NCBI GenBank assembly: GCA_016182185.1
Contig: JACOXU010000002.1
Location: 86,874 to 150,873, forward strand
DNA from: Candidatus Levyibacteriota bacterium
GTDB lineage: Bacteria; Patescibacteriota; Microgenomatia; Levybacterales; UBA12049
Reading direction: 5' to 3'
DNA: 64,000 nucleotides
Below are positions 1,661-53,440 of this stretch, piece after piece; the stretch's first letter is position 1, and the number at the start of each line of letters is the position of its first letter. The notes under the pieces were generated by a model. That model did no database searches. It was not told the origin of the DNA and worked only from the letters and a program-made list of their open reading frames with translations. Both the position numbers and the translations under genes were made by a program.

Positions 1661-1736
1661 CACCCCGGAAGGGGAATGAAATAGATCTGAAATTGTCGGC
1701 TAACAAGCAGAGAAAGCTTGTCCTTTGGACAAGGCT

Positions 1737-1767
1737 AAATTTCTAATTTCTAATTTCTAATTTCTAA
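1737..1767 (+). repeat. tandem heptamer repeat (tttctaa)x4 inside the 23S expansion segment
   Basis: aaatttctaatttctaatttctaatttctaaac. It belongs to a ~100-nt AT-rich insertion in 23S that also contains aattag-type repeats. Confidence 0.7.
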
Positions 1768-2357
1768 ACAAATTCCAATTTTGAAAAATCCAAAAGTTTA
1801 GATCAATTAGTAATTAGTTCAATTAGGTTAATTTATCCTCGCCCAGAGGGCGAGTGATCTCGTGCCTATTGAAGAATGAACCGGTGAGTTATTGATTGCA
1901 GCATAGTTTAACCAAGTAAGACTTGGGAAGACGTAGTGAAAGCATGGCCTAATTGGCCGATTAGTTGCAGTCAGTAGACCCGAAACCGGGTGAGCTAACC
2001 TTGGGCAGGGTGAACCCCATCGAAAGTTGGGGGGAGGCCCGAACCCGTATCTGTAGCAATAGGTTGGGATGACCTGAGGTTAGGGGCAATATGCCTAACG
2101 AACCCGGAGATAGCTGGTTCTCCCCGAAATATATCTAGGTATAGCGGGATATTACATCAACCTGGGGGTAGAGCACTGAATGGCCTTCGGCGGGGCAACC
2201 TGTCGAGTCCAATCAAACTCCGAATACCAGAAATTGTTGATATCCTAGTCAGACTGTTCGGGCTAAGCTGATCAGTCGAAAGGGAAACAGCCCAGACTCT
2301 CATCTAAGGTCTCTAAATAAAGACTAAGTTTTGAAGGAAGTCAAGTTCCATAGACAA

Positions 2358-2490: not shown

Positions 2491-3692
2491 GTGGTAGGGG
2501 AGCGTTCTGTTTGTAGCGAAGCTGTGCTGTAAGGCATGGTGGAACGGACAGAAGTGAGAATGCCGGTATGAGTAGCGAAATGCCGATGAGAAGTCGGCAC
2601 GCCGAATACCCAAGGTTTCCTCCGCAATGTAAGTCAGCGGAGGGTTAGTCGGCCCTAAGGGTGTCCCGTGAATAATTGCGGGGTAGCCCGATGGACAAGT
2701 CGTTGAAATTCGACTACATGGGGAAATGCGTTATTACTCAAGGATCGACCGGACTGGAAAAAAGATGCCCTGCCTCGGCGGGGTCTAAGCCATAAAGCAG
2801 TTTTGATTGGTAAATCCGTCTAAACGTTTTAACTGAGTGGCGATGGTGAAGATTCTAGATTCTAGAATTTAAGATTTTCTTTTTCAGTTTGCAAGAAATG
2901 ATTCGTGAGGAGTGTTTTTCTATGCCGTACCGCAAACCGACACAGGTGGGTTGGTCGAGAAGACTAAGGCGATCGGGAGAAGGATGGTCAAGGAACTCGG
3001 CAAAAAAGCTGGGCGTAACCTTTGGGAGATGCCCTGCCCGGTTAATCCGGGCTACAACAAAAGATTGCTTAGCGACTGTTTATCTAAAACACAGGCCTCT
3101 GCAAAACCGAAAGGTAAAGTATAGGGGCTGACGCCTGCCCAGTGCTGGCAAGTCAAATATCGAGAATGAAGTTCGCAAGAATCAGTTTTTGATATAAGCT
3201 CCAGTAAACGGCAGCAGTAACTATAACTGTTCTATGGTAGCGAAGTTCCTTGTCGGGCGAGTTCCGACCCGCACGAAAGGCAGAACGACTGAGCAACTGT
3301 CTTGATCATCTACCCGGCGAAATTGAGATGGCCGTGAAGACGCGGCCTAGTTGTCCTTAGCCCCCTCTTTCTGTGTTTGAGTCTAGACTAATAATCTTTG
3401 GTTCGAACCTAGAAAGAGGGGGCATAAGTGAAATACCTCTCTTTGAATTGAGTAATCATCACCTCTTTGCCGCATAAAAATCCGGCAGAGGGACAGTGTC
3501 TGGTGGGCAGTTTAACTGGGGAGGTTGACTCCTAAAGAGCAACGGAGTTGCACAAAGGTTGGCTATCCGCCGAAAGAAATGGCGGAGATAGTGTAAAGGC
3601 ATAAGCCAGCTTGACTGCGAGACCTACAAGTCGAGCAGATGCGAAAGCAGGTCTTAGTGATCCTCCGTAGCGTAGTGGTACGCTCGGAGCTT

Positions 3693-11715: not shown

Positions 11716-14700
11716 TTATTGATTCATGAAGGCAGAAGTTTTAGATAAATTGAGTTTACCAAAATTAATATTTTGTGTCAACCTAAAGAGAAGAAAAATA
11801 AAAGTTAATATGCTCAAAGATATGCCTAGATATTCTAGATATTGAGGAAGATAAAGGATGATAATTGACGATTGACCGATTTTCCAACCATTCTGCCAGT
11901 TGTTGACTTTAACATGATCTTTAATTTCTTTGCCAAAGAAGAAAGGAAAAGTGGCTGTCAACAGACTTTTGACCTTTGAGTTTTGAGTTTTGAGTTCTAC
12001 TTCGTATGCTTTCCAACCTTCATCGTAAGCCTGGGATAGTACCAAATAGGATCCTTTATCTGGGGGATTAAATCTGTAGAGAGAAGGATTTAATTTTTTG
12101 TAATCAAGCGGAACTGTTTCGGTATTTTTTGCAATTGTCGGAGTATCCGGATTTATAAAAATCTTCATATTTCTGATTGTTTTTTCAGGGAAAGGATATA
12201 AAGCGACTTTGGATATCTCTGCCTTTGCCTTTTCAACCCCAACCGATTTGACTACAAAATGAAATCCGTATCCGCTAAATACCTCTTCAGTTTTAGGAAC
12301 AATAAATACATTTTTTCCTTTTTTTGTTGAAAGTTTTGTTTCAAGCTCAGGCCGTTTTTCGAAAGTGTTGTCCATATAAAAACTTACAGGAAGACCGGAT
12401 TCGTGCTTACTGTCAACAATCAGAATGTACGATGCCTGATGAAAAAGATTATCTCTTGAAAATGCCATTTCAGCGGATGAATTTCCCGCTGCTTCAAAAG
12501 TTACTTTGTCTTTTCCCCGAACCATTTTTGAAAACACTTTATCAGGGTATAATTCAAATCCGCCAACATTTCTTCTAAGGTCATAATTTTCAGAGATTAT
12601 ATTATCAAAACCAAATGGGCCCTTAATTTTTTTTACTACAATTCTTAAATTATCAATTCTCTCTTCTTTTATAGGCATTAAAAATGTATAAATATTGATA
12701 TTTCTTGTATCGATCATGAAAGACTCTCCCCGTGTTCCGTCACCGACCCTTATGGTATTTGGATAATTGTTTAAAAGATATGACTTGACAATGCCGTTCC
12801 TAAATGGAACAGAATAATTTATATCCTCAAAGGTTATATGAGATATACTGCCAAGACTGGTTTCAATAACAGTTGGGTTTTCAACAATTTCTATTTCCCC
12901 CCCGTTTATATAAATAGTTGGGTAGATTAGATTTATGCTAATTTTTGCTCCTGAAGCTTTAACTTCAACTGGAATAAAAAATTCATTTGAATAAAGAGAA
13001 GGAATCTCAAGAACTGAATTTTTCCCCAAGGTTTTAGAATAAGGCTTTTTAGAAATAAATGTAATTGCATCTTTATCTTCCTTTATATCGAATTCTAAAT
13101 TTTCCTGCAGTTTACCTGAGAAGAGAGATGGCATTAGGTATGAAATCTTCGCAGAGTTTTCATCGACAATATAATTCCCCAAATTGTTGTAAATAACATC
13201 TTCTTTTTGAAATTTTGAAGAGGCATATATTTTCTCGGCTTTATCGATTGAAAATATCGGTGACGTATTTCCGTTGAATTCATAAATTATAAGCTTACCA
13301 AATATATTTTTCTTCACCAGAAGTTCACTTTTCTCGATGAATTCCCTAAGGCTGTTATAATTTATTGCGTAACGAGTCAGTGAATTTAAAACAGAAGTGT
13401 CAAGAAGAATATACTTGACGTTATATTTAAGAAGGGCATCTTTAAATAAGTTTTGGTCTCTCGTATCGACGGCATTTGCCATTTCATTATAGAACTGTTC
13501 ATTATAAGTACTCCATGGATCAAATGCACGCTCCATAAGAGGCTGGGGGATACCATACCAGAAAAAACCTGATCCTCTGTTGCCCCAATCTCTATACTGC
13601 CAGTTCCAGAACGAATACATGGGAAATACGGCAACTCTTCCGTTGTCATTTTGGTCTTTGAAGTAGGAAAAAGCCTCTTTATAATTTGATGGAACCTCGA
13701 GTCTTAGAAGCGGGCTGATAAAGTGACCCCTAAAGGCTGGAAGAGAAAGATAGAAAATAATAAAGATAAAAATTATCCCGAGAACAAAGCTTACCCTTCT
13801 TTTGTTAATCCAAGCAAGAATTGAATATAGCCCGAAAATAAGAAATAGGGAGAAGCAAAAGGCAAAAAGAATTATAAATTTGGTGAAGGGGAATCTGAAC
13901 GCTTCTCCAAGAACAGGGATAAATGTTCGAAAGAGATCATTAACCTGCGCAAAGAAAATAGTATTATTCGCAAGAAAAACAAAGGTAATCAACATCGAAA
14001 CTGCATAGGGAAGAAGGTTCCAGTTTTTTCTGACAAAAGTAATTATAATGCCAATTAGAGTAACGACGAGAATTAACAGAAAGCCAATCTGATAGGGAAG
14101 TGATTTATAATTCTGATACCAGCGAAGCATAAAAAGCACATCTGCCCCGAATGCCTGATCGTACTCAATGCTGTTTAACATGAATCCTTTAAGCGTCAGA
14201 ACGCTTTTTATATCTCCGTGAGCTTTATTTCTGTAGAAGATTTCCTCAGAGGAAAACTGATTAATTCTCGTGTTTCTTATCTCTGATTGGGTTTTAACTG
14301 CGCTGTAAGTATAAGGAAGAAGCCAGAATGCATTTGCCAAAAGTACGGTTAGAATTACCATAAGCCCTACTTTGATTTGTCCGGTTTTTATGATATGAAA
14401 AAGAGAAATTGTTCCCAAAAGAATAAGGAATACCAAAAATACCGTAGGGACAAATCCTTGAGGGCTGGCAAGAAGGGAAGCAAGAAAAAGTATCAAGTAA
14501 TTCTTGGGAGCTGGTTTTCTTAGGGCTTTTGTGATGAAAAGCGCAAGCCAGGGAAGTGCTGCAAAATGAAAAGCAAAGACTTCAAGAGGAGCAAAATACA
14601 TTTGAATAACTCCGAGGTTTAACATATAAAATAAGGCTCCCACAAAACAGAAGATTTTATTTTTGGTCTTCTCAATCTCGTTTTTGAAAATATAGCTTGA

Positions 14701-17835: not shown

Positions 17836-17991
17836 TTAGGAGGTCGTTGAGGCCTCCATGTTGATTGTGACAGGACTCGGTTCACTTCCTGTGCCGCTTG
17901 AGCTATCCAGATCTCCGCCGAGGAGACCGGTGCACAGTGCGCCCAGAAGGATGAGGACTGCCAAAATCGCGATGATCATCACGTACCGCAT
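17836..17991 (-). CDS. small membrane peptide (51 aa)
   Basis: AAGGAGG lies 6 nt upstream of the ATG at 17989-17991. An N-terminal TM segment (MRYVMIIAILAVLILLGALCTGLL) is followed by a Ser/Thr-rich tail. It lies just downstream of the dockerin gene's stop. Confidence 0.4.
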   Translation of the reverse strand: MRYVMIIAILAVLILLGALCTGLLGGDLDSSSGTGSEPSPVTINMEASTTS

Positions 17992-18002
17992 GTTCTGCCT
18001 CC

Positions 18003-18749: not shown

Positions 18750-18971
18750 GATGGAACCTCGCTTTCCTTGCTAGGATTGTTTAGTTCCATCACTGATTGC
18801 CCCCGGTATTCAGTTGTGTTGTCTTGGAACTACCACCTCCTTTGCGGTAGATTTGTCGCTAGATGTCGGCGTTCCCGTCGTCCTGCTGAGCTATCGGGCC
18901 AAGCCAATCACTGAATAAGAATCCAGCAAGGAAACCAAGCGCGAACACACCTACATAGATGAGCCACTTCA

Positions 18972-19892: not shown

Positions 19893-20226
19893 TCCTGACC
19901 TCTTTCTTTCTCCGACAGCTGTCAGCTGTAGGGTAGGCTTGACAATAGTTTCGGGTCGCCGTTAGAATGAGTATCGCTTTACGCGTCCTATCGGGGGCGA
20001 AGGTTGGCACGGCGCTTGTTTGGGCGCTTAGCCTTCTTTCGCTTGTGTCCGGGTCCCCAACTCAAATTAAGCCTCCTTAGGCTTGACGATGGATTGTTGC
20101 TTTTGCCTCCTTTGGTCGGATTAGAGATCGCGAACGATCTCGCATATTGTTACCGTTGGTGTGGCGTCTGCGCAACTTCCCATTATTCGGTTGTTTGACG
20201 GGTTTCTTTTTCCCGGTCACATCCGA

Positions 20227-20394
20227 TATTCCTCCTTGTGTCTGTCTTTGAACTGGATTGTGTCATCATTGATGTCGTTATAGCCTCCGCCTCCGTTACG
20301 ATCCTCTCGTCTCCGCCTCATCGTCGCTCGCCGATCCGCTTGTTTGCGGTTCTGCTTTTCGTGCTTACGCTTGTTGCGGGACATGATGCTCCTT
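20227..20394 (-). CDS. small highly basic protein (55 aa)
   Basis: AAGGAG lies 4 nt upstream of the ATG at 20392-20394. Sequence MSRNKRKHEKQNRKQADRRATMRRRREDRNGGGGYND..., Arg/Lys-rich. Confidence 0.35.
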
Positions 20395-20576
20395 TACGGC
20401 TCGAGGTTTACTTCATCTGTTTGTGCGCGTGTCTCGTCCACCTCGCGGGTGAAGTTGACTTGAACGAACACAAGCTTGAGCAATTCCCAGTAGGCGCTGA
20501 AAAGGCTTTTCAAGCTCACCACCTTTCACCAAGTAAATAGTTGATTATTCGGTTGTGTCTGGTCGAGGGAAGGTTG

Positions 20577-21167: not shown

Positions 21168-21796
21168 AACTTCCTCCGTATTCTTCGCTTGCGCGAAGCT
21201 AAATCCAGGTTGGTTATTCGGTTTTAGCCTGAGATCAGTGCTAGTACGAAGAGGGCGATTAGGATCAAGGTAGCCAAGGAATATACGAGTCCAGCCATAT
21301 GCGTTAGAATCGTAGCCTCGCTGTCAAGATCGTTATACCACTCGTACAAAGCACAACAGGTCTTAACATGTTTAACCCCCTTTAGGTTAATTAATTAGGG
21401 TTGATTTATCCGCCTGACTTTACCCTTCGGCCTTATCTCGCCAATTGGCGGATTCGGCTCAGGGAGCAGTCTTTGGCGGATTTCGTCACGCATAAATGCG
21501 TAACTTTATCTGCATACCTTGTTAAAGTGCGTCTCATAAAGAGAGTGGTCCTTGCGGATCAAACTCCTTAAGAGCGTACTGTTTCGCATCCGCCTCCGCT
21601 AAAGCTTCGGCGAGACAAACAAAATACCCGCAAAATGGGTACAAGGCGAAAAAGTTCAAGAATTCTATCAAATATTATAGGCTTTGTCAACTTAAATGAG
21701 TTCAAATCCCATTTTATTTTCTTATAGGATTTATTAGTGAAATTTATTTAAGATAGTTGTAAAAGTTAGGTAAAAGATTTAAGATTTAAGAAGTAT

Positions 21797-21868
21797 AAAT
21801 TTAAATTCTAAATTCGAAATTCTAAACTCTAAATAAATTACAAATTCAAAATCTTAAAATAATAAACA
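21797..21868. repeat. degenerate heptamer repeat array (aaattct/aaattca-type) upstream of the T4CP-like gene
   Basis: taaattctaaattcgaaattctaaactctaaataaattacaaattcaaaatcttaaaat. Confidence 0.65.
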
Positions 21869-21883
21869 AATTATAATTTAACC

Positions 21884-24052
21884 ATGAAGAATCAATTTGA
21901 TCGGGTTTTATTGGAAATCAAAACTTCAAGGACAGGGGAGGAAACTCCTGAGGCAATGGTCCAGTTTCTCTCAAGTCTTATCGGGCTTAAGAAACGTTAT
22001 TTAAATCTTATTTCATTTGCAATTCCGATCACACTTGAAATCGGAGTAATTGATCAGACAATTCATTTTTATATCTCTGCCCCAGCCACTCTTGCTACTT
22101 TTATAGAATCCCAGCTTGTTTCCCAGTATCCCAAGGCCTTGATAACCAAAACCCGTGATCCCTTGCCGGAAATGTTGTCAAATTCTTCATTGCTTGCGCT
22201 GGCTCAAATGAAACTTTCCTCAGGATTTATTTATCCAATCAAAACCTACAAAGATTTTAAAGATGTTGATCCGATGTCCTCAATCCTTTCTGTCCTTTCA
22301 AAAGCTCAGAAAGAAGACAAGGCTTGGATTCAACTAGTTCTTGTTCCGGTAGGGAATTCCTGGCAGGGAAAAGGCGAAAGAATAGCAACTGTCAAGAACA
22401 AAGACTCAGCCGGAGTAACTCACACCAATCCATATTCGAAGGTAATTATGGAAAAGATTAGCCTGAATGGCTTCAAAACTGCCATAAGGCTTGCTGTTTC
22501 TTCACATTCCAAAGAGAGAAGACTGCAGCTTCTTTACGAAATGGCCAATAGCTTCTCGTCCTTTAATAATCCTTCCGGAAACAGCCTTGGTTTCAGGCGT
22601 GTGCTTCTTTGGCAAAGAAGTAGGCTTATAAATGGAATGATCAAGAGAAATAAAAGATTTATTCCCTCCAGCCAAATTCTAAATGTAGGAGAGATCGCCA
22701 CTTTTTTCCATTTTCCGACTCAAAAATTCGCAACTCTTCATAATATTTCCTGGCACAAAACCATACTTTCCGAGCCTCCGCAAAATCTTCCGGTTGCAGA
22801 ATACTTGAGTCCTGAAGAGAAGGAAGAAACCAATTTTTTTGCGGCAACAGAATTCAAAAATAAAATTACAAATTTCGGAATAAAAACGACAGACCGAAGA
22901 AAGCATTTTTATATCATCGGAAAGACCGGAACCGGAAAATCGACTCTTATCGCGAATATGGGAATAAATGATATAAGAAATAAAAAGGGAGTTTGTATTA
23001 TAGATCCGCATGGAGATTTATGCGAGATTATCTTAAACTATATCCCATCCTACAGAGTGAATGATGTAGTTTATCTTGATCCGGCTGATGCTGCTCATCC
23101 TTTTTCATTAAATCCTCTTACGGTTGATAACCCCGAACAAAAGGAGCTGGTTGTCTCAGGAATTGTTGCCATCTTTCATAAACTTTATGGTCACACTTGG
23201 GGTCCGAGACTTGAGTATATCTTAAGAAACGCCCTTTTGTCAGTCATTAGTCTTCCTGATGCCACACTTCTTATGGTCCAGGATATTTTGACAGATGATG
23301 CTTTCAGAAGAAGAGTGATTGAAAGACTGACAGACAGGGTTCTTCGAAACTATTGGGTGAATGAATTCGAGAACATGCATCCTAGGATAAAAAGCGAATC
23401 AATTTCTCCGATCTTAAACAAAGTCGGGCAGTTTACTTCATCGCGTCTTATGCGAAATATTATTAAAAATCCACGGTCTACTGTAAATCTTGAGAAAATA
23501 ATGAACGAGGGGAAAATCGTGATTATGAATTTGTCCCAAGGAAGAATAGGGGAGGATAATGCCGCACTTTTGGGTGCCATGACAATCACCAAAATTCAGC
23601 TTGCGGCCATGAATAGAGTTTCAATGCCTGAGGCAGAGAGGAAGGATTTTTACCTCTACGTAGATGAGTTTCAAAATTTTGCCACAACCAGCTTTATTAA
23701 AATATTATCTGAAGCCCGCAAATACCGGCTTAACTTAATTCTGGCCAATCAGTATATATCTCAAGTGCCTGAAGATGTCAGAGCCGCAATATTTGGAAAT
23801 GTGGGAACGATGATGTCTTTTATAATCGGCGCTCAGGACAGTACCTATGTGGGTAAAGAATTTGGAGAAAGATTCAAAGCAGAAGATCTATTGCTGCTTA
23901 ATAACTATCAGGCAATTATCAAGCTTTCAATTGACGGAATCACCCAATCGCCGTTTTTGTGCAATACATTACCACTTCCCAAAAGTATTACTCAAAATAG
24001 GGAAAAGGTTATAAGATTATCTAGGGAGAAGTACACGAAACCCGTAGGGTAA
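21884..24052 (+). CDS. VirD4/TraG-family (type IV coupling protein-like) P-loop ATPase, orphan
   Basis: Walker A HFYIIGKTGTGKST is followed by IDPHGDL (matching the DPKGE/D motif of TraG/VirD4). Walker B is FYLYVDEFQNF. A ~330-aa N-terminal domain has no recognisable function. No other T4SS genes were seen in the window. Confidence 0.55.
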   Translation: MKNQFDRVLLEIKTSRTGEETPEAMVQFLSSLIGLKKRYLNLISFAIPITLEIGVIDQTIHFYISAPATLATFIESQLVSQYPKALITKTRDPLPEMLSNSSLLALAQMKLSSGFIYPIKTYKDFKDVDPMSSILSVLSKAQKEDKAWIQLVLVPVGNSWQGKGERIATVKNKDSAGVTHTNPYSKVIMEKISLNGFKTAIRLAVSSHSKERRLQLLYEMANSFSSFNNPSGNSLGFRRVLLWQRSRLINGMIKRNKRFIPSSQILNVGEIATFFHFPTQKFATLHNISWHKTILSEPPQNLPVAEYLSPEEKEETNFFAATEFKNKITNFGIKTTDRRKHFYIIGKTGTGKSTLIANMGINDIRNKKGVCIIDPHGDLCEIILNYIPSYRVNDVVYLDPADAAHPFSLNPLTVDNPEQKELVVSGIVAIFHKLYGHTWGPRLEYILRNALLSVISLPDATLLMVQDILTDDAFRRRVIERLTDRVLRNYWVNEFENMHPRIKSESISPILNKVGQFTSSRLMRNIIKNPRSTVNLEKIMNEGKIVIMNLSQGRIGEDNAALLGAMTITKIQLAAMNRVSMPEAERKDFYLYVDEFQNFATTSFIKILSEARKYRLNLILANQYISQVPEDVRAAIFGNVGTMMSFIIGAQDSTYVGKEFGERFKAEDLLLLNNYQAIIKLSIDGITQSPFLCNTLPLPKSITQNREKVIRLSREKYTKPVG

Positions 24053-24114
24053 ATTACAAATCTAAAATTACAAATTCCAAGCCTTTAGAATTTTGTATTT
24101 TGATTTTTGAATTT
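24051..24114. repeat. heptamer repeat array arranged as an imperfect inverted repeat, downstream of the T4CP-like gene
   Basis: aaattacaaatctaaaattacaaattcc...gaattttgtattttgatttttgaattt. The two arms are near reverse complements, which could form a long hairpin or terminator. Confidence 0.6.
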
Positions 24115-28342: not shown

Positions 28343-28395
28343 GGAGGAGATATTATACAAAAGCAGGGGAGAAGTATCAACTATAGGACAATTTG

Positions 28396-28467
28396 TGGAC
28401 CGGAAGAGATTCGAACTCTCAACCCCCTCCATGCCATGGAGGTGCGCTACCGTTACGCTACCGGCCC
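28396..28467 (-). tRNA. tRNA-Ala (anticodon GGC)
   Basis: Reverse complement is gggccggtagcgtaacggtagcgcacctccatggcatggagggggttgagagttcgaatctcttccggtcca. G3:U70 is present, the anticodon loop is atGGCat, and the T-loop is ttcgaat. Confidence 0.8.
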
Positions 28468-28470
28468 TTG

Positions 28471-28541
28471 TGGACTTGCCGAGAATCGAACTCGGAACTC
28501 GGTCATGCGAAGACCACGGTATACCATTTACCTACAAGCCC
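28471..28541 (-). tRNA. tRNA-Ala (anticodon CGC)
   Basis: Reverse complement is gggcttgtaggtaaatggtataccgtggtcttcgcatgaccgagttccgagttcgattctcggcaagtcca. G3:U70 is present and the anticodon loop is ttCGCat. It sits 3 nt from the previous tRNA. Confidence 0.8.
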
Positions 28542-37893: not shown

Positions 37894-38514
37894 TCAACTT
37901 ATTTCGTCTCTAATTTTCTCAGCATCTGAGACAATATTTTTAAGCTCGATAATTTCTTCAGGACTTCTAGGGGTTTCTTTTTCAAGTAAATCTTTGCTTG
38001 TATCTTCGATCTCATCTACATAACCCTCTACTTTTTCTTTCTCGAGATGATCATCCGAATCGGCACCTTTTTGATACTCTCTTCCAAACAGGAATGCAAT
38101 AGGAGAAACCAAGAGTAATGAACCGAGTCTTATAAAATTTCCGGTGACATCGTCTTTTAGAGCATCCGGAAGAAAGACCATGATGACACTTGCGCAAAAA
38201 ACAGCGATCGTAATCGGATCAAATACAAAAACCAAAGCAAATACGACAAAATATAGAAGAAAGAAGAAACTTGATGCAATACTGCCGGTTGAGAAGATAA
38301 AAAGAAGAATGATTGTGTTTAGTATAAATACTGAGAGGGGACCTCCTAAAAATATCATTTTTATTTTCTTTGTTCCAGCGAATGTACTTACTACATATAT
38401 AAAGATCAAAAAACCGATAATCTGAATTGTGTAATTCGCAAGAGGACTTTGTTGCCATATAAATACCAGGATAAAAGATAAAAGCAATAGGAGAGATTGA
38501 AGGAGTATTTTCAT
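37894..38514 (-). CDS. hypothetical polytopic membrane protein
   Basis: 4-5 TM helices, then an acidic C-terminal tail. Confidence 0.4.
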   Translation of the reverse strand: MKILLQSLLLLLSFILVFIWQQSPLANYTIQIIGFLIFIYVVSTFAGTKKIKMIFLGGPLSVFILNTIILLFIFSTGSIASSFFFLLYFVVFALVFVFDPITIAVFCASVIMVFLPDALKDDVTGNFIRLGSLLLVSPIAFLFGREYQKGADSDDHLEKEKVEGYVDEIEDTSKDLLEKETPRSPEEIIELKNIVSDAEKIRDEIS

Positions 38515-38649
38515 ACTTCGAATTCCTCAGCATGATCCTGAGTTTGTCGAATGGTCATAATCCAATCGTATAGAATTGCGCCTCAAAAAGCAAGATATAA
38601 ATTAATTTTTAATATGGATAGGTTAATTTTCTTGTGATATACTTCGTTT

Positions 38650-41238
38650 ATGGCTAAATCTAGCTCAAAAAAAGAAATTCCAAAGTATAATCCTACAGAA
38701 GTTGAGCCTAAATGGCAAAAATATTGGCTTGAAAATAAAATTTACCAGCCGGATATGGATAAGGCCAAAAAGCCCTTTTATAATCTCATGATGTTTCCAT
38801 ATCCATCAGCCGAAGGTATGCATGTGGGCAATATGTATGCTTTTACGGGCTCAGATGTTTATGGGCGATTTAAAAGGATGCAAGGACACGATGTTTTTGA
38901 ACCGATCGGACTTGATGGATTTGGAATTCACAGCGAAAATTATGCTTTAAAAGTTGGTAAACATCCTAAAGAACAGGCAAAGGTAAGCCAGGAAAATTTT
39001 TACAGACAGCTTCGAGTAACCGGAAATAGCTTTGCCTGGGATAATAAACTCGAAACCTATGACCCAGATTATTACAGATGGACACAATGGATATTTATCA
39101 AGCTTTTCAAAAAAGGATTAGCCTACCGCAAGAAAGCATCAGTTAATTTCTGCCCATCCTGCAAGACAGTTCTTGCAGATGAACAGGTGATTGCCGGAAA
39201 GTGTGAGCGCTGCGGTACCGAGGTTGTCAAAAAAGAGCTTGAGCAATGGTTTTTTAAGATCACCGACTATGCCGAAAGGCTCCTTAATAACATTGATGGG
39301 CTGGATTGGACAGAAAAAGTCAAAATCGCCCAAAGACAATGGATAGGGCGATCAGAGGGAGCGTTAATAAAATTCAAAATTCAAAATTCAAAATTCAAAA
39401 TGAAGACGATAGAAGTATTTACGACTCGGCCTGATACTCTTTATGGTGCAACCTTTATGGTTTTGGCTCCTGAGCATTCTCTTTCAAGAGAGATTGCAAG
39501 AGGCAATAACGAAATTGCGAAATATATCAAGGAATCTCAAAGCAAAACAGATCAGGATAGAATTGCAGAAGGCAGGGATAAGACAGGCATCGACTCAGGC
39601 TTGAGGGCCATAAATCCGGTAAGCAAAGAGGAAATTCCCGTATGGATTGCTGACTACGTGCTTATGGGCTATGGAACAGGTGCAATAATGGCAGTTCCTG
39701 CTCATGATGAGCGCGATTTTGAGTTCGCCCAAAAGTATAATCTTAGTATAAAATTTGTTATCAAGCCGATAGAAAATGATTTAGATACCAGAAAAGCTTA
39801 TTTGGGAGCAGGACAAGTAATCAATTCCGGGAAAGATTGGAATGATTATTTTGTGCCTGATGCAATCCCACGGATGATTGATGATCTTGAAAAGTGGGGA
39901 ATGGGAAAAAGACAAATCCAATATCACCTTCGGGATTGGCTTATCTCGAGGCAAAGATACTGGGGGCCGCCGATTCCCATGATTGATTGTCCAAAGTGTG
40001 GGTGGCAGGCAGTTGCTGAGAAAGATTTACCGGTACTTCTTCCCGATATTAAGGATTGGAAGCCTACAGGAGCTGGTAAATCACCGCTTGCTACGGTTGA
40101 GAGCTTTGTAAATACAAACTGTCCCGTATGCGGAGGACCTGCCAAACGAGAAACCGATGTATCTGACACATTTCTTGACAGCGCATGGTACTTCTTTCGT
40201 TACATAGCTACAGATTTTAAAGATGTTCCATTCCCTTCTAGTGCGTTTCATGATGATGCTGAGGTTGCTTCCAACAATTTTCGTCTTCACAAAGCGGGTA
40301 AATCTTCTGATTCATCCCGGAATGTCAGTGACGCAAATGTTCAGAGCGAAAATTTTAAAAGCTCCCCGCACCAAAGTCAAAACCGAACTGAAAAATGGCT
40401 TCCGGTGAACATGTATATAGGAGGAGCAGAACATTCGGTCTTACATCTGCTTTATTCAAGGTTTCTGACAATGGTTTTTAAGGATTTAGACTTGATATCT
40501 TTCGAAGAGCCATATTCTAAATTCAGAGCGCATGGGTTGCTCGTAAAGGAAGGGGCTAAAATGAGCAAGAGCAAGGGGAATGTAGTCATTCCGGATGAAT
40601 ACATTAAAAAATTTGGAGCAGATACCTTAAGGCTTTACTTAATGTTCCTCGGACCTTTTACTCAAGGAGGAGACTTTTACGATACGGGAATTGAAGGTAT
40701 GTATAGATTCGTCAGAAGAATCTGGACTCTAATTCATACAGTTAATTTCTCAACTCAATCCACAGGTGAAGGATTAAAAATAATGAACAAGACTATTAAA
40801 AAGGTAACAGAAGACTTGGAGGCTCTCAGGTACAACACAGCTATTGCAACGCTAATGGAATATTACAATTTTTTGTCAAAGGAACAAACTATATCAAAAG
40901 AGCAGATCGAAATATTAATTATTTTAACTTCACCCTTCGCTCCGCACATTTCTGAAGAAATTTGGGAGTTCTTAGGTCATAAAAATTCCATAAGCCAAAC
41001 AAATTGGCCCAGGTTTTCAGATAAATTTCTCGTCGAAAAAAATACGATAATCGTATTACAAGTGAATGGCAAAATTAGGGACACTTTCATGGTAGAAAAA
41101 TCTGAAATTGACAATAAGCAGACAATTGAAAAGATTGCTAGACAAAGTAAAAGAGCCAAAAAATACTTTGAAAACAAGCAAATCAGAAATGTCGTTTACG
41201 TAAAGGGAAAAATAATTAACTTTGTAATTGACAATTAG
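38650..41238 (+). CDS. leuS: leucyl-tRNA synthetase
   Basis: HVGNMYAF matches the HIGH motif (HMGH-type in LeuS). Also FTTRPDTLYGATF, WISRQRYWG and KMSKSKGN. It contains a ~43-aa in-frame insertion at 40258-40378 and an in-frame heptamer repeat at 39368-39400. Confidence 0.9.
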   Translation: MAKSSSKKEIPKYNPTEVEPKWQKYWLENKIYQPDMDKAKKPFYNLMMFPYPSAEGMHVGNMYAFTGSDVYGRFKRMQGHDVFEPIGLDGFGIHSENYALKVGKHPKEQAKVSQENFYRQLRVTGNSFAWDNKLETYDPDYYRWTQWIFIKLFKKGLAYRKKASVNFCPSCKTVLADEQVIAGKCERCGTEVVKKELEQWFFKITDYAERLLNNIDGLDWTEKVKIAQRQWIGRSEGALIKFKIQNSKFKMKTIEVFTTRPDTLYGATFMVLAPEHSLSREIARGNNEIAKYIKESQSKTDQDRIAEGRDKTGIDSGLRAINPVSKEEIPVWIADYVLMGYGTGAIMAVPAHDERDFEFAQKYNLSIKFVIKPIENDLDTRKAYLGAGQVINSGKDWNDYFVPDAIPRMIDDLEKWGMGKRQIQYHLRDWLISRQRYWGPPIPMIDCPKCGWQAVAEKDLPVLLPDIKDWKPTGAGKSPLATVESFVNTNCPVCGGPAKRETDVSDTFLDSAWYFFRYIATDFKDVPFPSSAFHDDAEVASNNFRLHKAGKSSDSSRNVSDANVQSENFKSSPHQSQNRTEKWLPVNMYIGGAEHSVLHLLYSRFLTMVFKDLDLISFEEPYSKFRAHGLLVKEGAKMSKSKGNVVIPDEYIKKFGADTLRLYLMFLGPFTQGGDFYDTGIEGMYRFVRRIWTLIHTVNFSTQSTGEGLKIMNKTIKKVTEDLEALRYNTAIATLMEYYNFLSKEQTISKEQIEILIILTSPFAPHISEEIWEFLGHKNSISQTNWPRFSDKFLVEKNTIIVLQVNGKIRDTFMVEKSEIDNKQTIEKIARQSKRAKKYFENKQIRNVVYVKGKIINFVIDN
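39368..39400 (+). repeat. heptamer tandem repeat (aaaattc)x4.5, in-frame in leuS
   Basis: taaaattcaaaattcaaaattcaaaattcaaaatg, encoding IKFKIQNSKFKM in a variable loop just before the FTTRPDT motif. Confidence 0.75.
40258..40378 (+). mobile_element. RPE-like ~120-bp palindromic element inserted in-frame within leuS
   Basis: About 75% identical to the intergenic copy at 57833-57936 (shared gctgaggt, caaaatttt, gcgggyarat, cagygacgcaaatg, gctccccgc). Its termini are inverted (aattttcg...cgaaaatt). It sits where E. coli LeuS has 20 aa between the ARY and WLPV motifs and this gene has 63 aa. Confidence 0.5.
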
Positions 41239-50331: not shown

Positions 50332-52035
50332 ATGCAGAATGTTGAAAAAGAAATTGCTGATGCGCTTAAAAAAATATTAAAAGAAGAAATTGGAGAAGAT
50401 GTAAAAATAGAGATTTCTCGTCCTCAAGATTCTTCTCATGGAGACTACTCAACCAACATTATACTTCGGATTTTTCACAAATTAGCCCAAAAATACCAAA
50501 ACCCCCATGATCTTGCAGAATTTATAGTAAATCAGCTTCAAAAAAAATTACCCAATATAGAGAAAATTCAAGCTTTTCCGCCCGGATTTATAAATTTTTG
50601 GTTGTCAGGAAAATATCTTTTTGAAAAACTGGATCATATTACAACACAACAAGATAATTTTGGAAAAGAGGCACAATTGAGAAATAAAAAAATAATGCTA
50701 GAATTTGCTGATCCAAATCCTTTCAAAGAATTTCATATCGGCCATTTAAGAAATATAACGCTGGGAGAGTCATATGCAAGACTTCTAGAGTTTCAGGGAG
50801 CGGATGTCTGGCGGGTGAATTATCAGGGAGATGTCGGGATGCATGTGGCAAAAGCCCTATGGGGAGTTCAAAATTCAAAAGTCAAAATGCAAAATTTAAA
50901 GTCAAAAGATGAAAGGTCAAAGTTTTTAGGAGAGGCATATGCATTAGGCGCTAAGGCATACGATGAAGATGAAAAAGCCAAAAAAGAAATAGAGGAGATA
51001 AATCTTAAAATTTATCAAAAGAGCGATCAGAGTCTTAATAAACTTTGGGAGAAGGGAAGAAAATGGAGCCTCGATCACTTTGAAGAAATTTATAAAAGAC
51101 TCAGGACAAGATACAAAAGATATTACTTTGAAAGCCAAACTGCAGAACCTGGACGTGAGATAGTTTTGAAAAATATTGAAAATAAAATATTTGAGAAACA
51201 CGACGGCGCTGTAGTTTTTAGAGGAACGCACACGAGAGTTTTTGTTACCAGCGAGAATTACGCAACTTATGAGGCAAAAGATCTTGCCTTGGCCAAAATC
51301 AAATTTGAAGATTTTAAATACGATAGGTCGATAATCATCACTGCCAATGAACAGATAGAATACTTCAAAGTTGTTTTAGAGGCGATGAAAAAAGTTTCGC
51401 TTGAGCTTGCTAATAAAACTATCCATGAATCTTTTGGATTTGTAAAACTTAAAGAAGGTAAAATGTCATCAAGAAAAGGAAGTGTGATAACAGGGGAATG
51501 GCTTCTGGATGAGGCGAAGAATAGATTAAAGTCGCAATTTCCCAAAATGGATGGGGAAACACTGGAGAAAGTCGCCGTTGGAGCCGTAAAGTATTCCATG
51601 CTGAAATTTTCCCGTAAATCCGATATTACCTTCAGCTTCGATGAGTCGATCAGTCTTGAGGGCAATTCAGGACCGTACCTGCAGTACTCCTATGCTCGTA
51701 CGCAAAGCGTGCTGGCGAAAATCCCAAATCCCAAATCCAAAATCCCAAATAATTCTAAACTTCAAAATATAAAACTGGAAAGAGAAGAGGAATTACTACT
51801 CAGGTTATTAATCCATTTTCCGGAGGTTGTCAAGGATTCTTCTGAGAATTTTGCACCGAATATTCTCTGCAATTTCCTTTTCGAGCTTGCCCAGAGTTTT
51901 AATAATTTCTATCAAAAGCACAAGATTATCGGAAGTAAAACTGAAGAATTTAGATTAAATCTAACCTTAGCAGTCGGCCAGATCCTCAAAAACGGCCTCT
52001 TTCTTTTGGGTATTGAGGCGCCTGAGAAGATGTGA
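50332..52035 (+). CDS. argS: arginyl-tRNA synthetase
   Basis: Class I HIGH motif (PFKEFHIGHLRN) and KMSSRKG (the KMSKS equivalent). Contains two in-frame heptamer-repeat tracts. Confidence 0.9.
   Translation: MQNVEKEIADALKKILKEEIGEDVKIEISRPQDSSHGDYSTNIILRIFHKLAQKYQNPHDLAEFIVNQLQKKLPNIEKIQAFPPGFINFWLSGKYLFEKLDHITTQQDNFGKEAQLRNKKIMLEFADPNPFKEFHIGHLRNITLGESYARLLEFQGADVWRVNYQGDVGMHVAKALWGVQNSKVKMQNLKSKDERSKFLGEAYALGAKAYDEDEKAKKEIEEINLKIYQKSDQSLNKLWEKGRKWSLDHFEEIYKRLRTRYKRYYFESQTAEPGREIVLKNIENKIFEKHDGAVVFRGTHTRVFVTSENYATYEAKDLALAKIKFEDFKYDRSIIITANEQIEYFKVVLEAMKKVSLELANKTIHESFGFVKLKEGKMSSRKGSVITGEWLLDEAKNRLKSQFPKMDGETLEKVAVGAVKYSMLKFSRKSDITFSFDESISLEGNSGPYLQYSYARTQSVLAKIPNPKSKIPNNSKLQNIKLEREEELLLRLLIHFPEVVKDSSENFAPNILCNFLFELAQSFNNFYQKHKIIGSKTEEFRLNLTLAVGQILKNGLFLLGIEAPEKM
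50867..50909 (+). repeat. degenerate heptamer repeat (caaaatt-type), in-frame in argS
   Basis: ttcaaaattcaaaagtcaaaatgcaaaatttaaagtcaaaag, encoding VQNSKVKMQNLKSK. Confidence 0.65.
51717..51750 (+). repeat. heptamer repeat (aaatccc)x4, in-frame in argS
   Basis: gaaaatcccaaatcccaaatccaaaatcccaaat, encoding KIPNPKSKIPN. Confidence 0.7.
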
Positions 52036-52089: not shown

Positions 52090-53367
52090 ATGAATTACCA
52101 AAGAACAGTTCTTTCAAACGGCCTTAGTGTTTTGACTATCCCTATGCCTTCCTTCAAGAGCGTGACCGCAATGGTGATGGTGGGCGCCGGCAGTCGTTAT
52201 GAAACAAAAAAGAATAGCGGAATCTCTCACTTTTTAGAACACATGGCATTTAAGGGAACTAAAAAACGGCCCTCCGCGCTTGATATCTCAAATTTAATTG
52301 ATGGAATTGGCGGAGAATTTAATGCTTTTACAGGAAAAGAGGCAACCGGTTACTATATCAAATCATCTGCAAACCATACAGAGCTTTGTCTTGATGTTCT
52401 TTCTGACATGCTTCAGAACTCCCTCTTCGATGAAAATGAAATAGGTAAAGAGAAAGGTGTAATTTTGGAAGAAATTAATCTTTACGAGGATACACCGGTT
52501 CGAAAGATAGGAGATATATTTGAAAGATTGGTTTACGGAGATACGCCCATGGGATGGGACATAGCAGGAGTAAAAGATGTCATAAAGAGCGTTCAAAGGA
52601 AGGATTTTATTTCATACATGGATAGTTTATATAGCGCAGATAATATTACCGTTGTACTCGCGGGAGGCATCACAAGTAAAAGAGCCAATGAGTTAGTAGA
52701 AAAATATTTTGGAAAAATGAAGAAGTTTGATATATTACGATATAATAAAGTAGTAGAGACCCAAAAGGAACCCGGTCTTCTTATAAAGCAGAAGAAAACA
52801 GAGCAAGTCCATGTTGCTCTTGGGGTTAGGACAGTTCCCCTTAATCATAAAGACCGCTATTCACTTTCTGTCCTGTCAGCTATATTGGGCGGCGGAATGA
52901 GTTCAAGACTATTTCATGAAGTTCGTGAAAGAAGAGGACTTGCTTACTATGTCAGAACCAGCTCCGACCACTATCAGGATTGTGGGAATCTTGTCTCAAC
53001 AGCCGGAGTGGATCCCAAGAGAGTGGGTGAGGCAATCGAAGTTATGATTTCTGAGTATCATAAAATTAAAAGCGAAAAAAATGGCATTAGTAGCAAAGAG
53101 CTTAAGAAAGCAAAAGAATACTTAAAAGGACACTTAATCTTGGAGCTTGAAGATTCAAGATCAGTTGCAGGTTTCTATGCGCATCAGGAGCTTCTTGAGA
53201 AGAAAATCGATAATCCTTCAGAAACAATTGTCAAGATAAACAAGGTAACCGCAGATGAGGTTCAGAAAACTGCTCGTAAATACTTAAACGAGCAGGGATT
53301 AAACCTGGCAATAATCGGTAATTTTCCCAATGGACAAGAGTTTAAGAAACTATTAAAATTAACCTAA
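52090..53367 (+). CDS. M16-family zinc peptidase (insulinase-like)
   Basis: Inverted zincin motif HFLEHMAFKGT (HxxEH), with a downstream E. An M16 C-terminal domain follows. Confidence 0.8.
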   Translation: MNYQRTVLSNGLSVLTIPMPSFKSVTAMVMVGAGSRYETKKNSGISHFLEHMAFKGTKKRPSALDISNLIDGIGGEFNAFTGKEATGYYIKSSANHTELCLDVLSDMLQNSLFDENEIGKEKGVILEEINLYEDTPVRKIGDIFERLVYGDTPMGWDIAGVKDVIKSVQRKDFISYMDSLYSADNITVVLAGGITSKRANELVEKYFGKMKKFDILRYNKVVETQKEPGLLIKQKKTEQVHVALGVRTVPLNHKDRYSLSVLSAILGGGMSSRLFHEVRERRGLAYYVRTSSDHYQDCGNLVSTAGVDPKRVGEAIEVMISEYHKIKSEKNGISSKELKKAKEYLKGHLILELEDSRSVAGFYAHQELLEKKIDNPSETIVKINKVTADEVQKTARKYLNEQGLNLAIIGNFPNGQEFKKLLKLT

Positions 53368-53440
53368 TTAACCTAATTGACCTAATTAATCTAATTGATC
53401 TAAAATAGATTTAGTAATTAGAAATTAGAATTTAGAAATT
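53357..53440 (+). repeat. tandem 9-mer/7-mer AT-rich repeats (acctaatta, attagaa) in the M16-ndk intergenic region
   Basis: aattaacctaattaacctaattgacctaattaatctaattgatc...taattagaaattagaatttagaaatt. The array starts within the last codons of the peptidase gene. Confidence 0.7.

What the first reader, a model, noticed from the sequence alone, without database searches (positions are those of the whole stretch)
39368..39400. The same AT-rich heptamer tandem repeat is embedded in-frame in several unrelated genes and also inside 23S rRNA
Short tandem heptamers of the aaaattc / aaatccc / tttctaa type occur throughout the window. Intergenic copies lie at 15903-15957, 21797-21868, 24051-24114 and 53357-53440. 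Copies also lie in-frame in essential genes. They are found in leuS at 39368-39400 (KFKIQNSKFKM), in argS at 50867-50909 (VQNSKVKMQNLKSK) and 51717-51750 (KIPNPKSKIPN), at the GT2 N-terminus at 15932 (MKIQNSKFKI), and in the 1098-aa membrane protein at 11974-11997 (KTQNSKVKS). The near-identical peptide QNSK(F/V)K therefore recurs in four proteins, because the same nucleotide repeat was inserted or expanded in a frame-preserving 21-nt unit. A related (tttctaa)x4 array and aattag repeats sit inside a ~100-nt expansion of 23S rRNA (1737-1767), and attctag is duplicated at 2852-2878. Such dense 7-nt microsatellites in coding sequence and rRNA are unusual for a small bacterial genome. They suggest a slippage-prone replication or repair background, or a tiny mobile repeat. 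The T4CP-like gene is bracketed by two such arrays, the downstream one forming an inverted pair.
Basis: seen in the sequence. Interest (0 to 1): 0.6.

Follow-up and report, generated by a model that had tools for sequence, protein, structure and literature searches.

The report
Seven-base microsatellites pervading CPR bacterial genes
This tiny-genome (CPR/Patescibacteria) bacterium and its relatives carry many short tandem repeats of 7-base units, even in frame inside essential genes and in 23S rRNA; the arrays sit at the same sites in relatives but with different repeat units, which points to a lineage-wide, 7-base-specific slippage process rather than a mobile element.

Summary
All listed arrays exist. 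The window has 7 exact period-7 arrays of at least 2.5 copies, against 0.04 expected, and no other period from 5 to 15 is enriched.

The source is a Candidatus Levybacteria MAG (Patescibacteria). The feature is lineage-wide. TRF finds 158 period-7 arrays in 1.27 Mb of CPR DNA and 3 in 1.19 Mb of non-CPR DNA, and the contrast holds in GC-matched loci.

Arrays are as common inside ORFs as outside. Coding arrays have the A-rich strand as sense and mostly stop-free units. Read in three frames, they give 7-residue peptides such as KIQNSKF.

Units are diverse (74 among 158, consensus AAAWTTS) and have no conserved flanks, so this is not one mobile repeat.

At the leuS site, both argS sites and one intergenic site, relatives carry arrays with different units, each internally homogeneous. 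That is concerted evolution.

Two assemblies of one relative differ across 22.8 kb only by one heptamer, and the shorter allele frameshifts argS.

The LeuS tract is not a net insertion. The 23S insert is a hairpin at the helix-25 tip.

Best explanation: heptanucleotide microsatellites from 7-nt slippage, filtered by selection. This is a known kind (cyanobacterial STRR, Xanthomonas, Geobacter) in a new lineage, with new coding and positional behaviour. The pile-up of array length at ~32 nt is unexplained.

The parts
39369..39401 (+). leuS in-frame array (AAAATTC)x4.7, perfect; encodes KFKIQNSKFK in the hairpin just before the TTRPDT motif
50867..50921 (+). argS site 1: degenerate TTCAAAA/GTCAAAA array of about 6-7 units; encodes VQNSKVKMQNLKSK
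51719..51750 (+). argS site 2: (AAATCCC)x4.6; encodes KIPNPKSKIPN in the linker before the anticodon-binding domain
11967..11996 (-). 1098-aa membrane protein array (sense AAAACTC/AAAGGTC); encodes KTQNSKVKS; about +6 aa relative to the array-free ortholog in L172
15903..15954 (-). Inverted pair of arrays spanning the GT2 start codon (ATG at 15932-15930 on the - strand). The sense AAAATTC array encodes MKIQNSKFKI, and an AAATTTT-type array lies in the 5' leader. Together they fold as a hairpin.
21774..21834 (.). Two adjacent intergenic arrays, (AAGATTT)x2.6 and (TAAATTC)x5.7, upstream of the T4CP-like gene
24051..24114 (.). Inverted pair (AAATTAC)x4.3 / (TTTTGAA)x4.4 between the convergent T4CP-like and DUF11 genes; hairpin of -14.1 kcal/mol
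53357..53440 (.). Intergenic peptidase M16 / ndk spacer: a 9-mer array (AATTAACCT)x4.4 followed by (TTAGAAA)x4.3. The orthologous spacer in L084 and L086 holds a CTAGCCA array.
1722..1844 (+). ~125-nt insertion at the tip of a 23S rRNA hairpin (Rfam LSU model positions 583/584; helix-25 region). It contains (AATTTCT)x4.3 at 1738-1767 and complementary AATTAG-type repeats at 1798-1833, and it folds as one long hairpin.
2850..2866 (+). (AGATTCT)x2.4 in a small variable 23S hairpin (model ~1573-1590); no extra length; weak member

Best explanation
The arrays are heptanucleotide microsatellites, short tandem repeats with a 7-nt unit. They are a genome-wide mutational signature of this lineage (Candidatus Levybacteria, and Patescibacteria/CPR more broadly).

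Inferred mechanism:
- Strand slippage, or misaligned repair, needs about 7 nt of re-pairing. It creates tandem copies of AT-rich 7-mers (consensus AAAWTTS), adds and removes copies, and homogenises them.
- Selection then decides which arrays persist.
  - In coding DNA, arrays persist when the A-rich strand is the sense strand, the unit has no stop codon in any frame, the net length keeps the reading frame, and the site tolerates a 7-residue periodic, K/N/Q/S-rich peptide.
  - In rRNA, they persist at the tip of an expansion-tolerant helix.
  - In spacers, they often persist as inverted pairs that form hairpins, or just upstream of start codons.
- Turnover is fast relative to point mutation, so each array stays internally uniform while its unit drifts. 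Orthologous sites therefore hold different units in different lineages (concerted evolution).

Shown:
- the period-specific enrichment and its restriction to this lineage;
- the strand and stop-codon rules for coding arrays;
- the diversity of units;
- conservation of array position with turnover of the unit;
- one natural single-unit polymorphism.

Inferred:
- that slippage is the generating process;
- why 7 nt is preferred;
- why arrays pile up at about 32 nt.
For: 1. Only period 7 is enriched in the window: 7 observed against 0.04 expected.
2. The enrichment is lineage-wide. Exact arrays occur at about 10 per 100 kb in 1.0 Mb of related CPR loci, 7.9 per 100 kb in other CPR phyla, and 0.34 per 100 kb in 1.19 Mb of non-CPR loci. 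TRF gives 158 against 3. GC-matched controls agree.
3. The period spectrum has a threshold at 7. Periods 5 and 6 are at background, then p7 = 102, p8 = 10, p9 = 2. This fits a minimum slipped-duplex length, with seeds becoming rarer as the unit gets longer.
4. There are 74 distinct units among 158 arrays and no conserved flanks.
5. Array density is about the same in ORFs as outside: 83% of arrays lie in the 86% of DNA that is ORF. In 91 of 111 coding arrays the sense unit is stop-free, while most intergenic units contain stops.
6. The same leuS site carries (AAAATTC), (GTTCAAA), (AAATTCC), (AAGATTT), (TTCAATT) or (AATTCTC) in different relatives, several of them in register and differing by 1-2 substitutions per unit. 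The same holds at both argS sites and the M16/ndk spacer.
7. 7-residue periodic peptides are frequent in CPR LeuS homologs: 34 runs, against 1-5 for any other period.
8. L086 and L088 have 0 SNPs over 22.8 kb. Their only internal difference is one CAAATCT unit in argS (4 vs 5 copies), and the 4-copy allele is out of frame.
9. Published precedent: heptameric SSRs are over-represented in many bacteria, and a polymerase-footprint slippage hypothesis has been proposed for this (PMC4692102, citing Mrazek 2007).
Against: 1. Array length is not geometric. It piles up at 30-34 nt (~4.5 copies) and drops sharply beyond that, in coding and non-coding arrays alike. Simple stepwise slippage does not predict this.
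2. At several sites a perfect 32-34-nt array occupies exactly the length seen in array-free orthologs. This needs homogenisation without net length change, or very old arrays that have decayed in other lineages.
3. Within one genome, different loci tend to share a unit. In the window AAAATTC occurs in leuS, argS site 1, GT2 and 24084. In L086/L088, CAAATCT occurs at both argS sites. This hints at cross-talk between loci or a genome-specific bias.
4. Direct evidence of instability is a single event. Other near-identical locus pairs show no array difference, and the two assemblies may not be independent samples.
5. No enzyme or repair defect was identified.
Confidence: 0.72

Rival explanations
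1. A tiny mobile or templated element: pre-formed cassettes of about 32 nt, or 21-nt increments, made of heptamer repeats are written into permissive sites by a dedicated enzyme such as a retroelement, a template-switching polymerase or a site-specific system.
For: - Arrays have a discrete preferred size (30-34 nt, ~4.5 units) in both coding and non-coding DNA, with a small second mode about 21 nt longer.
- Loci within one genome tend to share a unit.
- Some sites show insertions of about +7 aa or multiples of it.
- Separate GC-rich ~24-nt sequences do sit inside some arrays in relatives.
Against: - There are 74 different units among 158 arrays and no conserved termini, flanks or target duplications.
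- Arrays at orthologous sites are in register and differ by 1-2 substitutions per unit, as expected for in-situ evolution.
- A 32-nt cassette would break the reading frame.
- Many arrays cause no length change.
- The observed polymorphism is a single 7-nt unit.
- No candidate enzyme lies next to the arrays.
Confidence: 0.08
2. The arrays are maintained by selection as functional sites, recognised through their 7-bp periodicity or A-tract shape rather than their sequence. The reader could be a DNA- or RNA-binding protein, for example a nucleoid or partition-type protein that reads heptad repeats, or RNase III acting on the hairpins. This would explain their conserved positions and size.
For: - Array position is conserved across relatives with 55-75% protein identity while the sequence turns over.
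- Array size is uniform.
- Non-coding arrays are more often in inverted pairs: 28% against 13% for coding arrays.
- Identical (AATTAGA)n arrays lie just upstream of start codons in L097 and L109, and a similar one lies upstream of ndk in the window.
- G. metallireducens four-heptamer elements were annotated as putative regulatory elements (PMC2700814).
Against: - The units are too diverse for a sequence-specific reader.
- Array sites inside LeuS coincide with structurally variable segments, which fits tolerance rather than function.
- Density is the same in coding and non-coding DNA.
- Promoter and terminator scans give nothing specific at the arrays.
- The inverted-pair enrichment is modest.
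Confidence: 0.1
3. The arrays are contingency loci: copy-number changes switch genes on and off (phase variation), as simple repeats do in Haemophilus and Neisseria.
For: - The GT2 array begins at the start codon. This is the classic layout for phase-variable glycosyltransferases.
- An out-of-frame argS allele exists in nature.
Against: - Most arrays lie mid-gene in essential single-copy housekeeping genes (leuS, argS), where an OFF state should be lethal.
- Arrays also occur in rRNA and in spacers.
- Orthologous arrays keep the reading frame in every intact gene examined.
Confidence: 0.07
4. The arrays are an assembly or sequencing artefact, or a by-product of AT-rich composition and protein-level selection for K/N/Q-rich loops.
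For: The genome is AT-rich (about 38% GC), and lysine/asparagine-rich loops are common in such genomes.
Against: - Composition-preserving shuffles give 0.04 arrays.
- AT-rich non-CPR loci have none outside Balneolaceae and Omnitrophota.
- The same arrays appear in independent assemblies from JGI, ENA, NCBI and Logan.
- Protein-level selection cannot produce a 7-nt nucleotide period that is read in three frames, and it cannot explain arrays in rRNA or spacers.
Confidence: 0.02

Closest known systems
Heptanucleotide SSR excess in prokaryotes (Mrazek et al. 2007, as summarised in PMC4692102) and cyanobacterial STRR repeats (Calothrix, Nostoc)
   Same: - Tandem 7-nt units.
- A period-7-specific over-representation while neighbouring periods are normal.
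- Length and sequence variation between related strains.
- A slippage explanation linked to the polymerase footprint has been proposed.
   Different: - Those repeats are mainly intergenic and use one or a few G-rich units per genome (GGGAATC, GGGGAYT, CCCCAGT).
- Here the units are AT-rich and highly diverse.
- Arrays are as dense inside ORFs as outside and occur in essential genes and in rRNA.
- Arrays occupy orthologous positions, with the unit turning over across a deep radiation.
Geobacter metallireducens elements of four tandem heptanucleotide repeats (PMC2700814)
   Same: - About four copies per array.
[quoted passage not shown]
- Many copies per genome.
   Different: - A single GC-rich consensus (GGACCGG) matched by BLAST as one family and interpreted as a regulatory RNA or binding site.
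- Here there is no single consensus and no evidence of regulation.
Phase-variable simple sequence repeats (contingency loci) of Haemophilus, Neisseria and Campylobacter
   Same: - Slippage changes the copy number.
- Units that are not a multiple of 3 shift the reading frame.
- One array here sits at the 5' end of a glycosyltransferase gene.
   Different: - Those use mostly 1-5-nt units in non-essential surface or restriction-modification genes, and they exist to switch the gene.
- Here arrays sit mid-gene in aminoacyl-tRNA synthetases and keep the frame.
23S rRNA intervening sequences at helix 25 (Salmonella, Leptospira, Campylobacter; from my own knowledge) and CPR rRNA insertions
   Same: An extra long stem-loop of about 125 nt is inserted at the tip of the same variable helix. 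CPR rRNAs are known for insertions; L172 also has a LAGLIDADG gene inside its 23S.
   Different: - Here the insert is built from two complementary heptamer arrays.
- Whether it is excised, leaving a fragmented 23S, is unknown.
Tandem repeats in Borg elements that create disordered protein regions (PMC9879509)
   Same: - Perfect nucleotide tandem repeats inside ORFs.
- Rapid evolution.
- Arrays recur at similar places.
- The translated repeats add low-complexity peptide.
   Different: - Borg coding repeats have units divisible by 3 and are much longer.
- They occur in an archaeal extrachromosomal element.
- Here the unit is 7 nt and is therefore read in three frames.

Membership tests
Prokaryotic heptanucleotide SSRs (STRR-type microsatellites) | Head-to-tail tandem copies of a 7-nt unit | tested here: met
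   TRF period 7 with up to 100% matches; exact runs
Prokaryotic heptanucleotide SSRs (STRR-type microsatellites) | Period 7 over-represented relative to shuffles and to neighbouring periods | tested here: met
   7 arrays against 0.04 expected in the window; 158 against 3 arrays in CPR vs non-CPR DNA; holds when GC-matched
Prokaryotic heptanucleotide SSRs (STRR-type microsatellites) | Copy number varies by whole units between closely related strains | tested here: met
   L086 and L088 differ only by one CAAATCT unit across 22.8 kb. This is a single case; other near-identical pairs show no difference.
Prokaryotic heptanucleotide SSRs (STRR-type microsatellites) | Mainly intergenic, with one or a few characteristic units per genome | tested here: not met
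   83% of arrays lie in ORFs; at least 9 different units in the window; 74 units among 158 arrays
Geobacter-type four-heptamer elements | About four tandem heptamers, located both inside and between genes | tested here: met
   Mode of 4.5 copies in both coding and intergenic arrays
Geobacter-type four-heptamer elements | One shared consensus sequence that defines a BLAST-detectable family | tested here: not met
   Diverse units and no conserved flanks
Miniature mobile repeats (MITE / REP / small dispersed repeats) | A conserved element sequence with defined ends (terminal inverted repeats, target duplications) in many copies | tested here: not met
   Flank profiles are flat and units are diverse; orthologous arrays evolve in place
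Phase-variable contingency loci | A repeat in the 5' coding or promoter region of a non-essential, usually surface-related gene | tested here: inconclusive
   True for GT2 (array at the ATG). Not true for leuS or argS (mid-gene, essential) or for rRNA.
Phase-variable contingency loci | ON and OFF alleles coexist in populations | tested here: inconclusive
   One out-of-frame argS allele in an assembly; no read-level data
23S rRNA helix-25 intervening sequence | An extra stem-loop inserted at the tip of helix 25 | tested here: met
   ~125-nt insert at Rfam LSU model positions 583/584, between the two arms of one hairpin; it folds as one long hairpin within a 171-nt stretch (window 1690-1860) that has an MFE of -49.8 kcal/mol. 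Naming the helix as H25 rests on my own knowledge.
23S rRNA helix-25 intervening sequence | Excised by RNase III, leaving a fragmented 23S rRNA | not testable with these tools
   Needs rRNA or metatranscriptome reads

The most novel reading that the evidence does not exclude
CPR bacteria may have a dedicated, 7-nt-register DNA process, not ordinary slippage. It would write and maintain arrays of a fixed size (~32 nt, 4.5 units) at heritable positions, including inside essential genes and rRNA. It would homogenise the arrays without changing their length, and it would tend to give different loci within one genome the same unit. Such a process, or a reader of the arrays, would be a new lineage-specific feature of genome maintenance. 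It could also supply new 7-residue peptide segments in surface loops of conserved enzymes.
Probability: 0.12. Interest if true: 0.85.

Novelty: new variant of a known kind. Interest (0 to 1): 0.6.

Why it matters
A 30-50-fold, period-7-specific excess of microsatellites appears to be a genomic signature of Patescibacteria. I found no description of it in the searchable literature.

- **Origin of odd insertions.** It offers a simple nucleotide-level origin for some of the low-complexity K/N/Q/S-rich insertions in CPR proteins and for at least one rRNA expansion.
- **Concerted evolution in essential genes.** Arrays stay at the same site for very long periods while the unit changes.
- **Mutational load.** A single-unit slip inactivates argS, so the arrays are a source of harmful mutations.
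- **Annotation errors.** The same slips produce split genes in MAG annotations.
- **A testable question.** Why 7 nt is favoured has been open since the 2007 survey. This lineage, with its sharp threshold at 7 and its ceiling at ~32 nt, could be used to test explanations based on the polymerase footprint or on a minimum homology length.

Tried and rejected
1. The look-up of encoding contigs with the window's LeuS found nothing. The source was identified later through ArgS and GDPD (P0121 and P0241, 100% identical).
2. The genome-contig scan with LeuS returned only relatives of 49% identity or less. I used them as CPR and non-CPR controls.
3. I tried to get relatives' 23S helix-25 region through the gene downstream of the 5S rRNA. 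L172 starts at model position 1072, and L176 starts after helix 25. The Logan contigs of the window's own organism stop before the rRNA and match the window exactly. The rRNA insert therefore could not be compared across relatives.
4. Promoter and terminator scans were uninformative at the arrays.
5. An all-against-all comparison of near-identical loci found only one heptamer polymorphism.
6. Reading-frame selection as the cause of the 4.5-copy mode is rejected, because non-coding arrays show the same mode.
7. A protein-level origin of the periodicity is rejected, because the 7-nt period is read in three frames and arrays also occur in rRNA and spacers.
8. Mrazek 2007 could not be read, so it is cited only through PMC4692102.
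9. The claim that the second 23S site (2850-2878) is an expansion is rejected.
Full report
**1. What is in the window**

- leuS 39369-39401 is a perfect (AAAATTC)x4.7 encoding KFKIQNSKFK.
- argS carries a degenerate TTCAAAA-type array at 50867-50921 (VQNSKVKMQNLKSK) and (AAATCCC)x4.6 at 51719-51750 (KIPNPKSKIPN).
- The GT2 gene starts inside an AAAATTC array (MKIQNSKFKI).
- The 1098-aa membrane protein has an AAAACTC-type array (KTQNSKVKS).
- Non-coding arrays lie at 21774-21834, 24051-24114 and 53357-53440.
- The 23S rRNA contains (AATTTCT)x4.3 at 1738-1767.

With a strict definition (exact repeats of at least 2.5 copies), the window has 7 period-7 arrays. One hundred third-order Markov shuffles give 0.04 on average. 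No other period from 5 to 15 departs from expectation.

Homolog searches confirm LeuS and ArgS.

**2. The organism, and how far the feature extends**

ArgS and the GDPD protein next to the rRNA operon are 100% identical to proteins of a Candidatus Levybacteria MAG on a 164-kb NCBI contig. All close LeuS relatives are Patescibacteria.

I collected three sets of DNA:
- 8 loci from close relatives;
- 80 loci from related metagenome contigs;
- 80 loci from diverse genomes, of which 9 are CPR and 71 are not.

Density of exact period-7 arrays, per 100 kb:

| Set | Arrays per 100 kb |
|---|---|
| Window | 10.9 |
| Close relatives | 14.3 |
| 1.0 Mb of metagenome relatives | 10.0 |
| Other CPR phyla (Shapirobacteria, Paceibacterota, Saccharibacteria, Parcubacteria, Daviesbacteria) | 7.9 |
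| 1.19 Mb of non-CPR DNA | 0.34 |

Periods 4-6 are alike in all sets. TRF counts 158 period-7 arrays in CPR DNA and 3 in non-CPR DNA. The contrast is not a composition effect. Non-CPR loci below 42% GC have 4 arrays in 542 kb, all in Balneolaceae or Omnitrophota, against 115 in 1.0 Mb for CPR. The period spectrum has a threshold: periods 5 and 6 are at background, then p7 = 102, p8 = 10, p9 = 2.

**3. Rules the arrays obey**

- Arrays are not depleted from coding sequence. 83% lie in long ORFs, which cover 86% of the DNA.
- In coding arrays the A-rich strand is the sense strand, and the unit is stop-free in all three frames in 91 of 111 cases. Most intergenic units contain a stop on both strands. 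This follows from arithmetic: 7 and 3 share no factor, so a 21-nt stretch is read in all three frames.
- That arithmetic also explains the recurring peptide. AAAATTC gives K-I-Q-N-S-K-F, and AAAAGTC and AAAACTC give the V and T/L variants.
- Units are diverse. There are 74 among 158 arrays, with consensus AAAWTTS and 25% GC against a 40% background. The flanks show no conserved bases. This excludes a single mobile sequence.
- Non-coding arrays are somewhat more often in inverted pairs, 28% against 13% for coding arrays.
- The pairs at the GT2 start and downstream of the T4CP-like gene, and the 23S insert, all fold as hairpins.

**4. Orthologous sites**

This was the most informative result.

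*leuS site.* Relatives carry different, internally perfect arrays at the window's leuS site:
- (GTTCAAA)x4.5 in L081, L087 and L145;
- (AAATTCC)x4.5 in L082 and L124;
- (TTCAATT)x5 in L097;
- (AATTCTC) in L148;
- degenerate AAGATTT in L085 and L086;
- a decaying AAATTCA array in L084.

Several of these are in register with the window's array and differ by one or two substitutions that are fixed in every copy.

*Other sites.*
- Both argS sites behave the same way. L084 has (GAGTTCG) and (CAGAATT), and L086/L088 have (CAAATCT).
- Most close ArgS homologs have a 7-residue periodic peptide at site 2.
- The M16/ndk spacer holds an array in L084 and L086 as well.
- Across 120 LeuS homologs, 7-residue periodic runs number 34, against 1-5 for any other period.
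- Arrays cluster at about nine hot spots along LeuS.

Conserved position, changing unit and internal uniformity together are the signature of concerted evolution.

**5. Insertion or not?**

The answer differs by site.
- **leuS.** The segment has the same length as in the nearest relatives. It is only 3 residues longer than the same hairpin, just before TTRPDT, in T. thermophilus and E. coli LeuS. Array-bearing and array-free orthologs do not differ in length at this site, nor at ~aa 281, 746 and 815.
- **Other LeuS sites.** At ~aa 181, 450, 525 and 775, arrays come with extra residues, often about 7 or a multiple of 7.
- **Membrane protein.** The tract is about 6 residues longer than the array-free ortholog in L172, and it is shared with L176 and L175.
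- **argS.** The tracts fill a variable segment that has a similar length in distant homologs without arrays.

**6. Direct evidence for slippage**

L086 and L088 are two assemblies that carry an identical LeuS. They are identical over 22.8 kb except for one CAAATCT unit in argS site 1, 4 copies against 5. The 4-copy version splits argS into two ORFs, and the 5-copy version is intact.

An A8 run directly follows the array. Transcriptional slippage at that run could in principle rescue the frame; this is my inference and was not tested.

The case is single. Other near-identical pairs show no array difference, and the two assemblies may derive from related read sets.

**7. 23S rRNA**

The ~125-nt insert lies between the two arms of one hairpin, at Rfam LSU model positions 583/584. 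From my own knowledge this is the helix-25 region, a classic site of intervening sequences.

Within a 171-nt stretch (window 1690-1860) whose MFE is -49.8 kcal/mol, the insert folds as one long hairpin whose arms are the AAUUUCU array and complementary AAUUAG-type repeats. I could not obtain this region from any relative, so I cannot say whether the position is conserved there. Whether the insert is excised also remains unknown.

The second rRNA site (2850-2866) is a 2.4-copy repeat in a small variable hairpin with no added length.

**8. Mechanism**

The best-supported reading is a lineage-wide slippage-type process with a 7-nt register, followed by selection. The published hypothesis for heptamer excess in bacteria is that 7 nt matches the DNA segment held in the polymerase active site (PMC4692102, citing Mrazek 2007). 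The sharp threshold at 7 seen here, with the decline at 8 and 9, fits that idea.

Three features are not explained by simple stepwise slippage:
- array length piles up at 30-34 nt and drops sharply beyond, in coding and non-coding DNA alike, with a small second mode about 21 nt longer;
- some perfect arrays cause no net length change;
- loci within one genome tend to share a unit.

One untested idea for the ceiling: once the misaligned overlap (array length minus 7) reaches about 25 bp, homologous recombination may remove units efficiently.

Rival explanations are a mobile or templated element, a shape-reading protein or RNase III function, and phase variation. Each has some support but fits fewer of the facts, as set out in the rival entries.

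**9. Comparison with what is known**

Heptanucleotide repeats are known in Calothrix and Nostoc (STRR), Xanthomonas (GGGAATC) and Geobacter metallireducens. The Geobacter genome has 49 elements of four heptamers, within and between genes (PMC4692102, PMC2700814).

The present case shares the period, the array size of about four copies and the presumed slippage origin. It differs in four ways:
- the lineage;
- the AT-rich and highly diverse units;
- equal density in coding DNA, including essential genes and rRNA;
- deep conservation of array position with turnover of the unit.

Searches for any description of this in CPR or Patescibacteria found nothing. The library is incomplete, so this is absence of evidence only.

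**10. Verdict**

It is a new variant of a known kind of repeat, of moderate to fairly high interest.

Noticed in passing
L095 12392-12406 and 11594-11608; L175 9400-9414 (-); L081 5065; L115 6602; L120 14268; L131 7337; L133 18804; window 38537-38551 (-), 1 mismatch: A ~24-nt GC-rich sequence (CCATTCGACAAGCTCAGGACGAGC, peptide ..PFDKLRT..) recurs only in CPR loci. In L095 (LeuS) and L175 (membrane protein) it sits in frame directly between heptamer repeats, and ArgS homolog P0182 has the same peptide inside its array. Other recurrent in-frame inserts within ArgS arrays are ..FAKASAGKQ.. and ..ILKQVQDD... These may be tiny dispersed elements that prefer heptamer arrays, as I recall was reported for Nostoc small dispersed repeats (not verified here). 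The window copy lies in the leader of the gene at 37894-38514, not in an array.
   Followed up: partly
L086 17449-17487 vs L088 17449-17494: The argS gene of a relative (GCA_900218215.1, ORJL010126076.1) is frameshifted by the loss of one CAAATCT unit. An A8 run follows the array directly. That run could allow transcriptional slippage to rescue the frame, or it could be a sequencing-error site.
   Followed up: partly
window 16000-20500: A 57% GC island sits in a ~38% GC genome. It holds ORFs with bacterial TSP3 repeats and G-rich 12/18/24/48-nt tandem repeats at 19225-19532. It lies between the GT2 array and the arrays upstream of the T4CP-like gene, so it may be horizontally acquired DNA linked to a conjugative element remnant.
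   Followed up: no
L172 1-2893 (23S), LAGLIDADG ORF at 976-1476: A relative's 23S rRNA gene contains a LAGLIDADG homing-endonuclease ORF, probably an intron. This is typical of CPR rRNA genes.
   Followed up: no
L068 8082-8164; L054 9654-9686: The only non-CPR loci with clear heptamer arrays are two Balneolaceae MAGs, one with an 83-nt GTTCAAT array, and one Omnitrophota MAG (L020).
   Followed up: no
L097 10295-10319 and 11049-11073; L109 12316-12340; window 53411-53440: An identical 25-nt (AATTAGA)n array, preceded by TTGATTAGGT, lies 7-22 nt upstream of start codons of different genes and in two genomes. A similar TTAGAAA array precedes ndk in the window. AAATTAG is the most common intergenic unit. 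The arrays may have a promoter or leader role.
   Followed up: partly
window 28395-28541: Two adjacent tRNA-Ala genes (GGC and CGC anticodons) lie on the minus strand, and a third tRNA-Ala (TGC) lies upstream of the 23S at 696-769.
   Followed up: no
LeuS homologs P0007, P0027, P0110: Some CPR LeuS proteins carry a ~190-aa alpha/beta-hydrolase-like domain (PF06821/PF00561/PF12697) inserted at exactly the same hairpin site that holds the heptamer array in the window.
   Followed up: no
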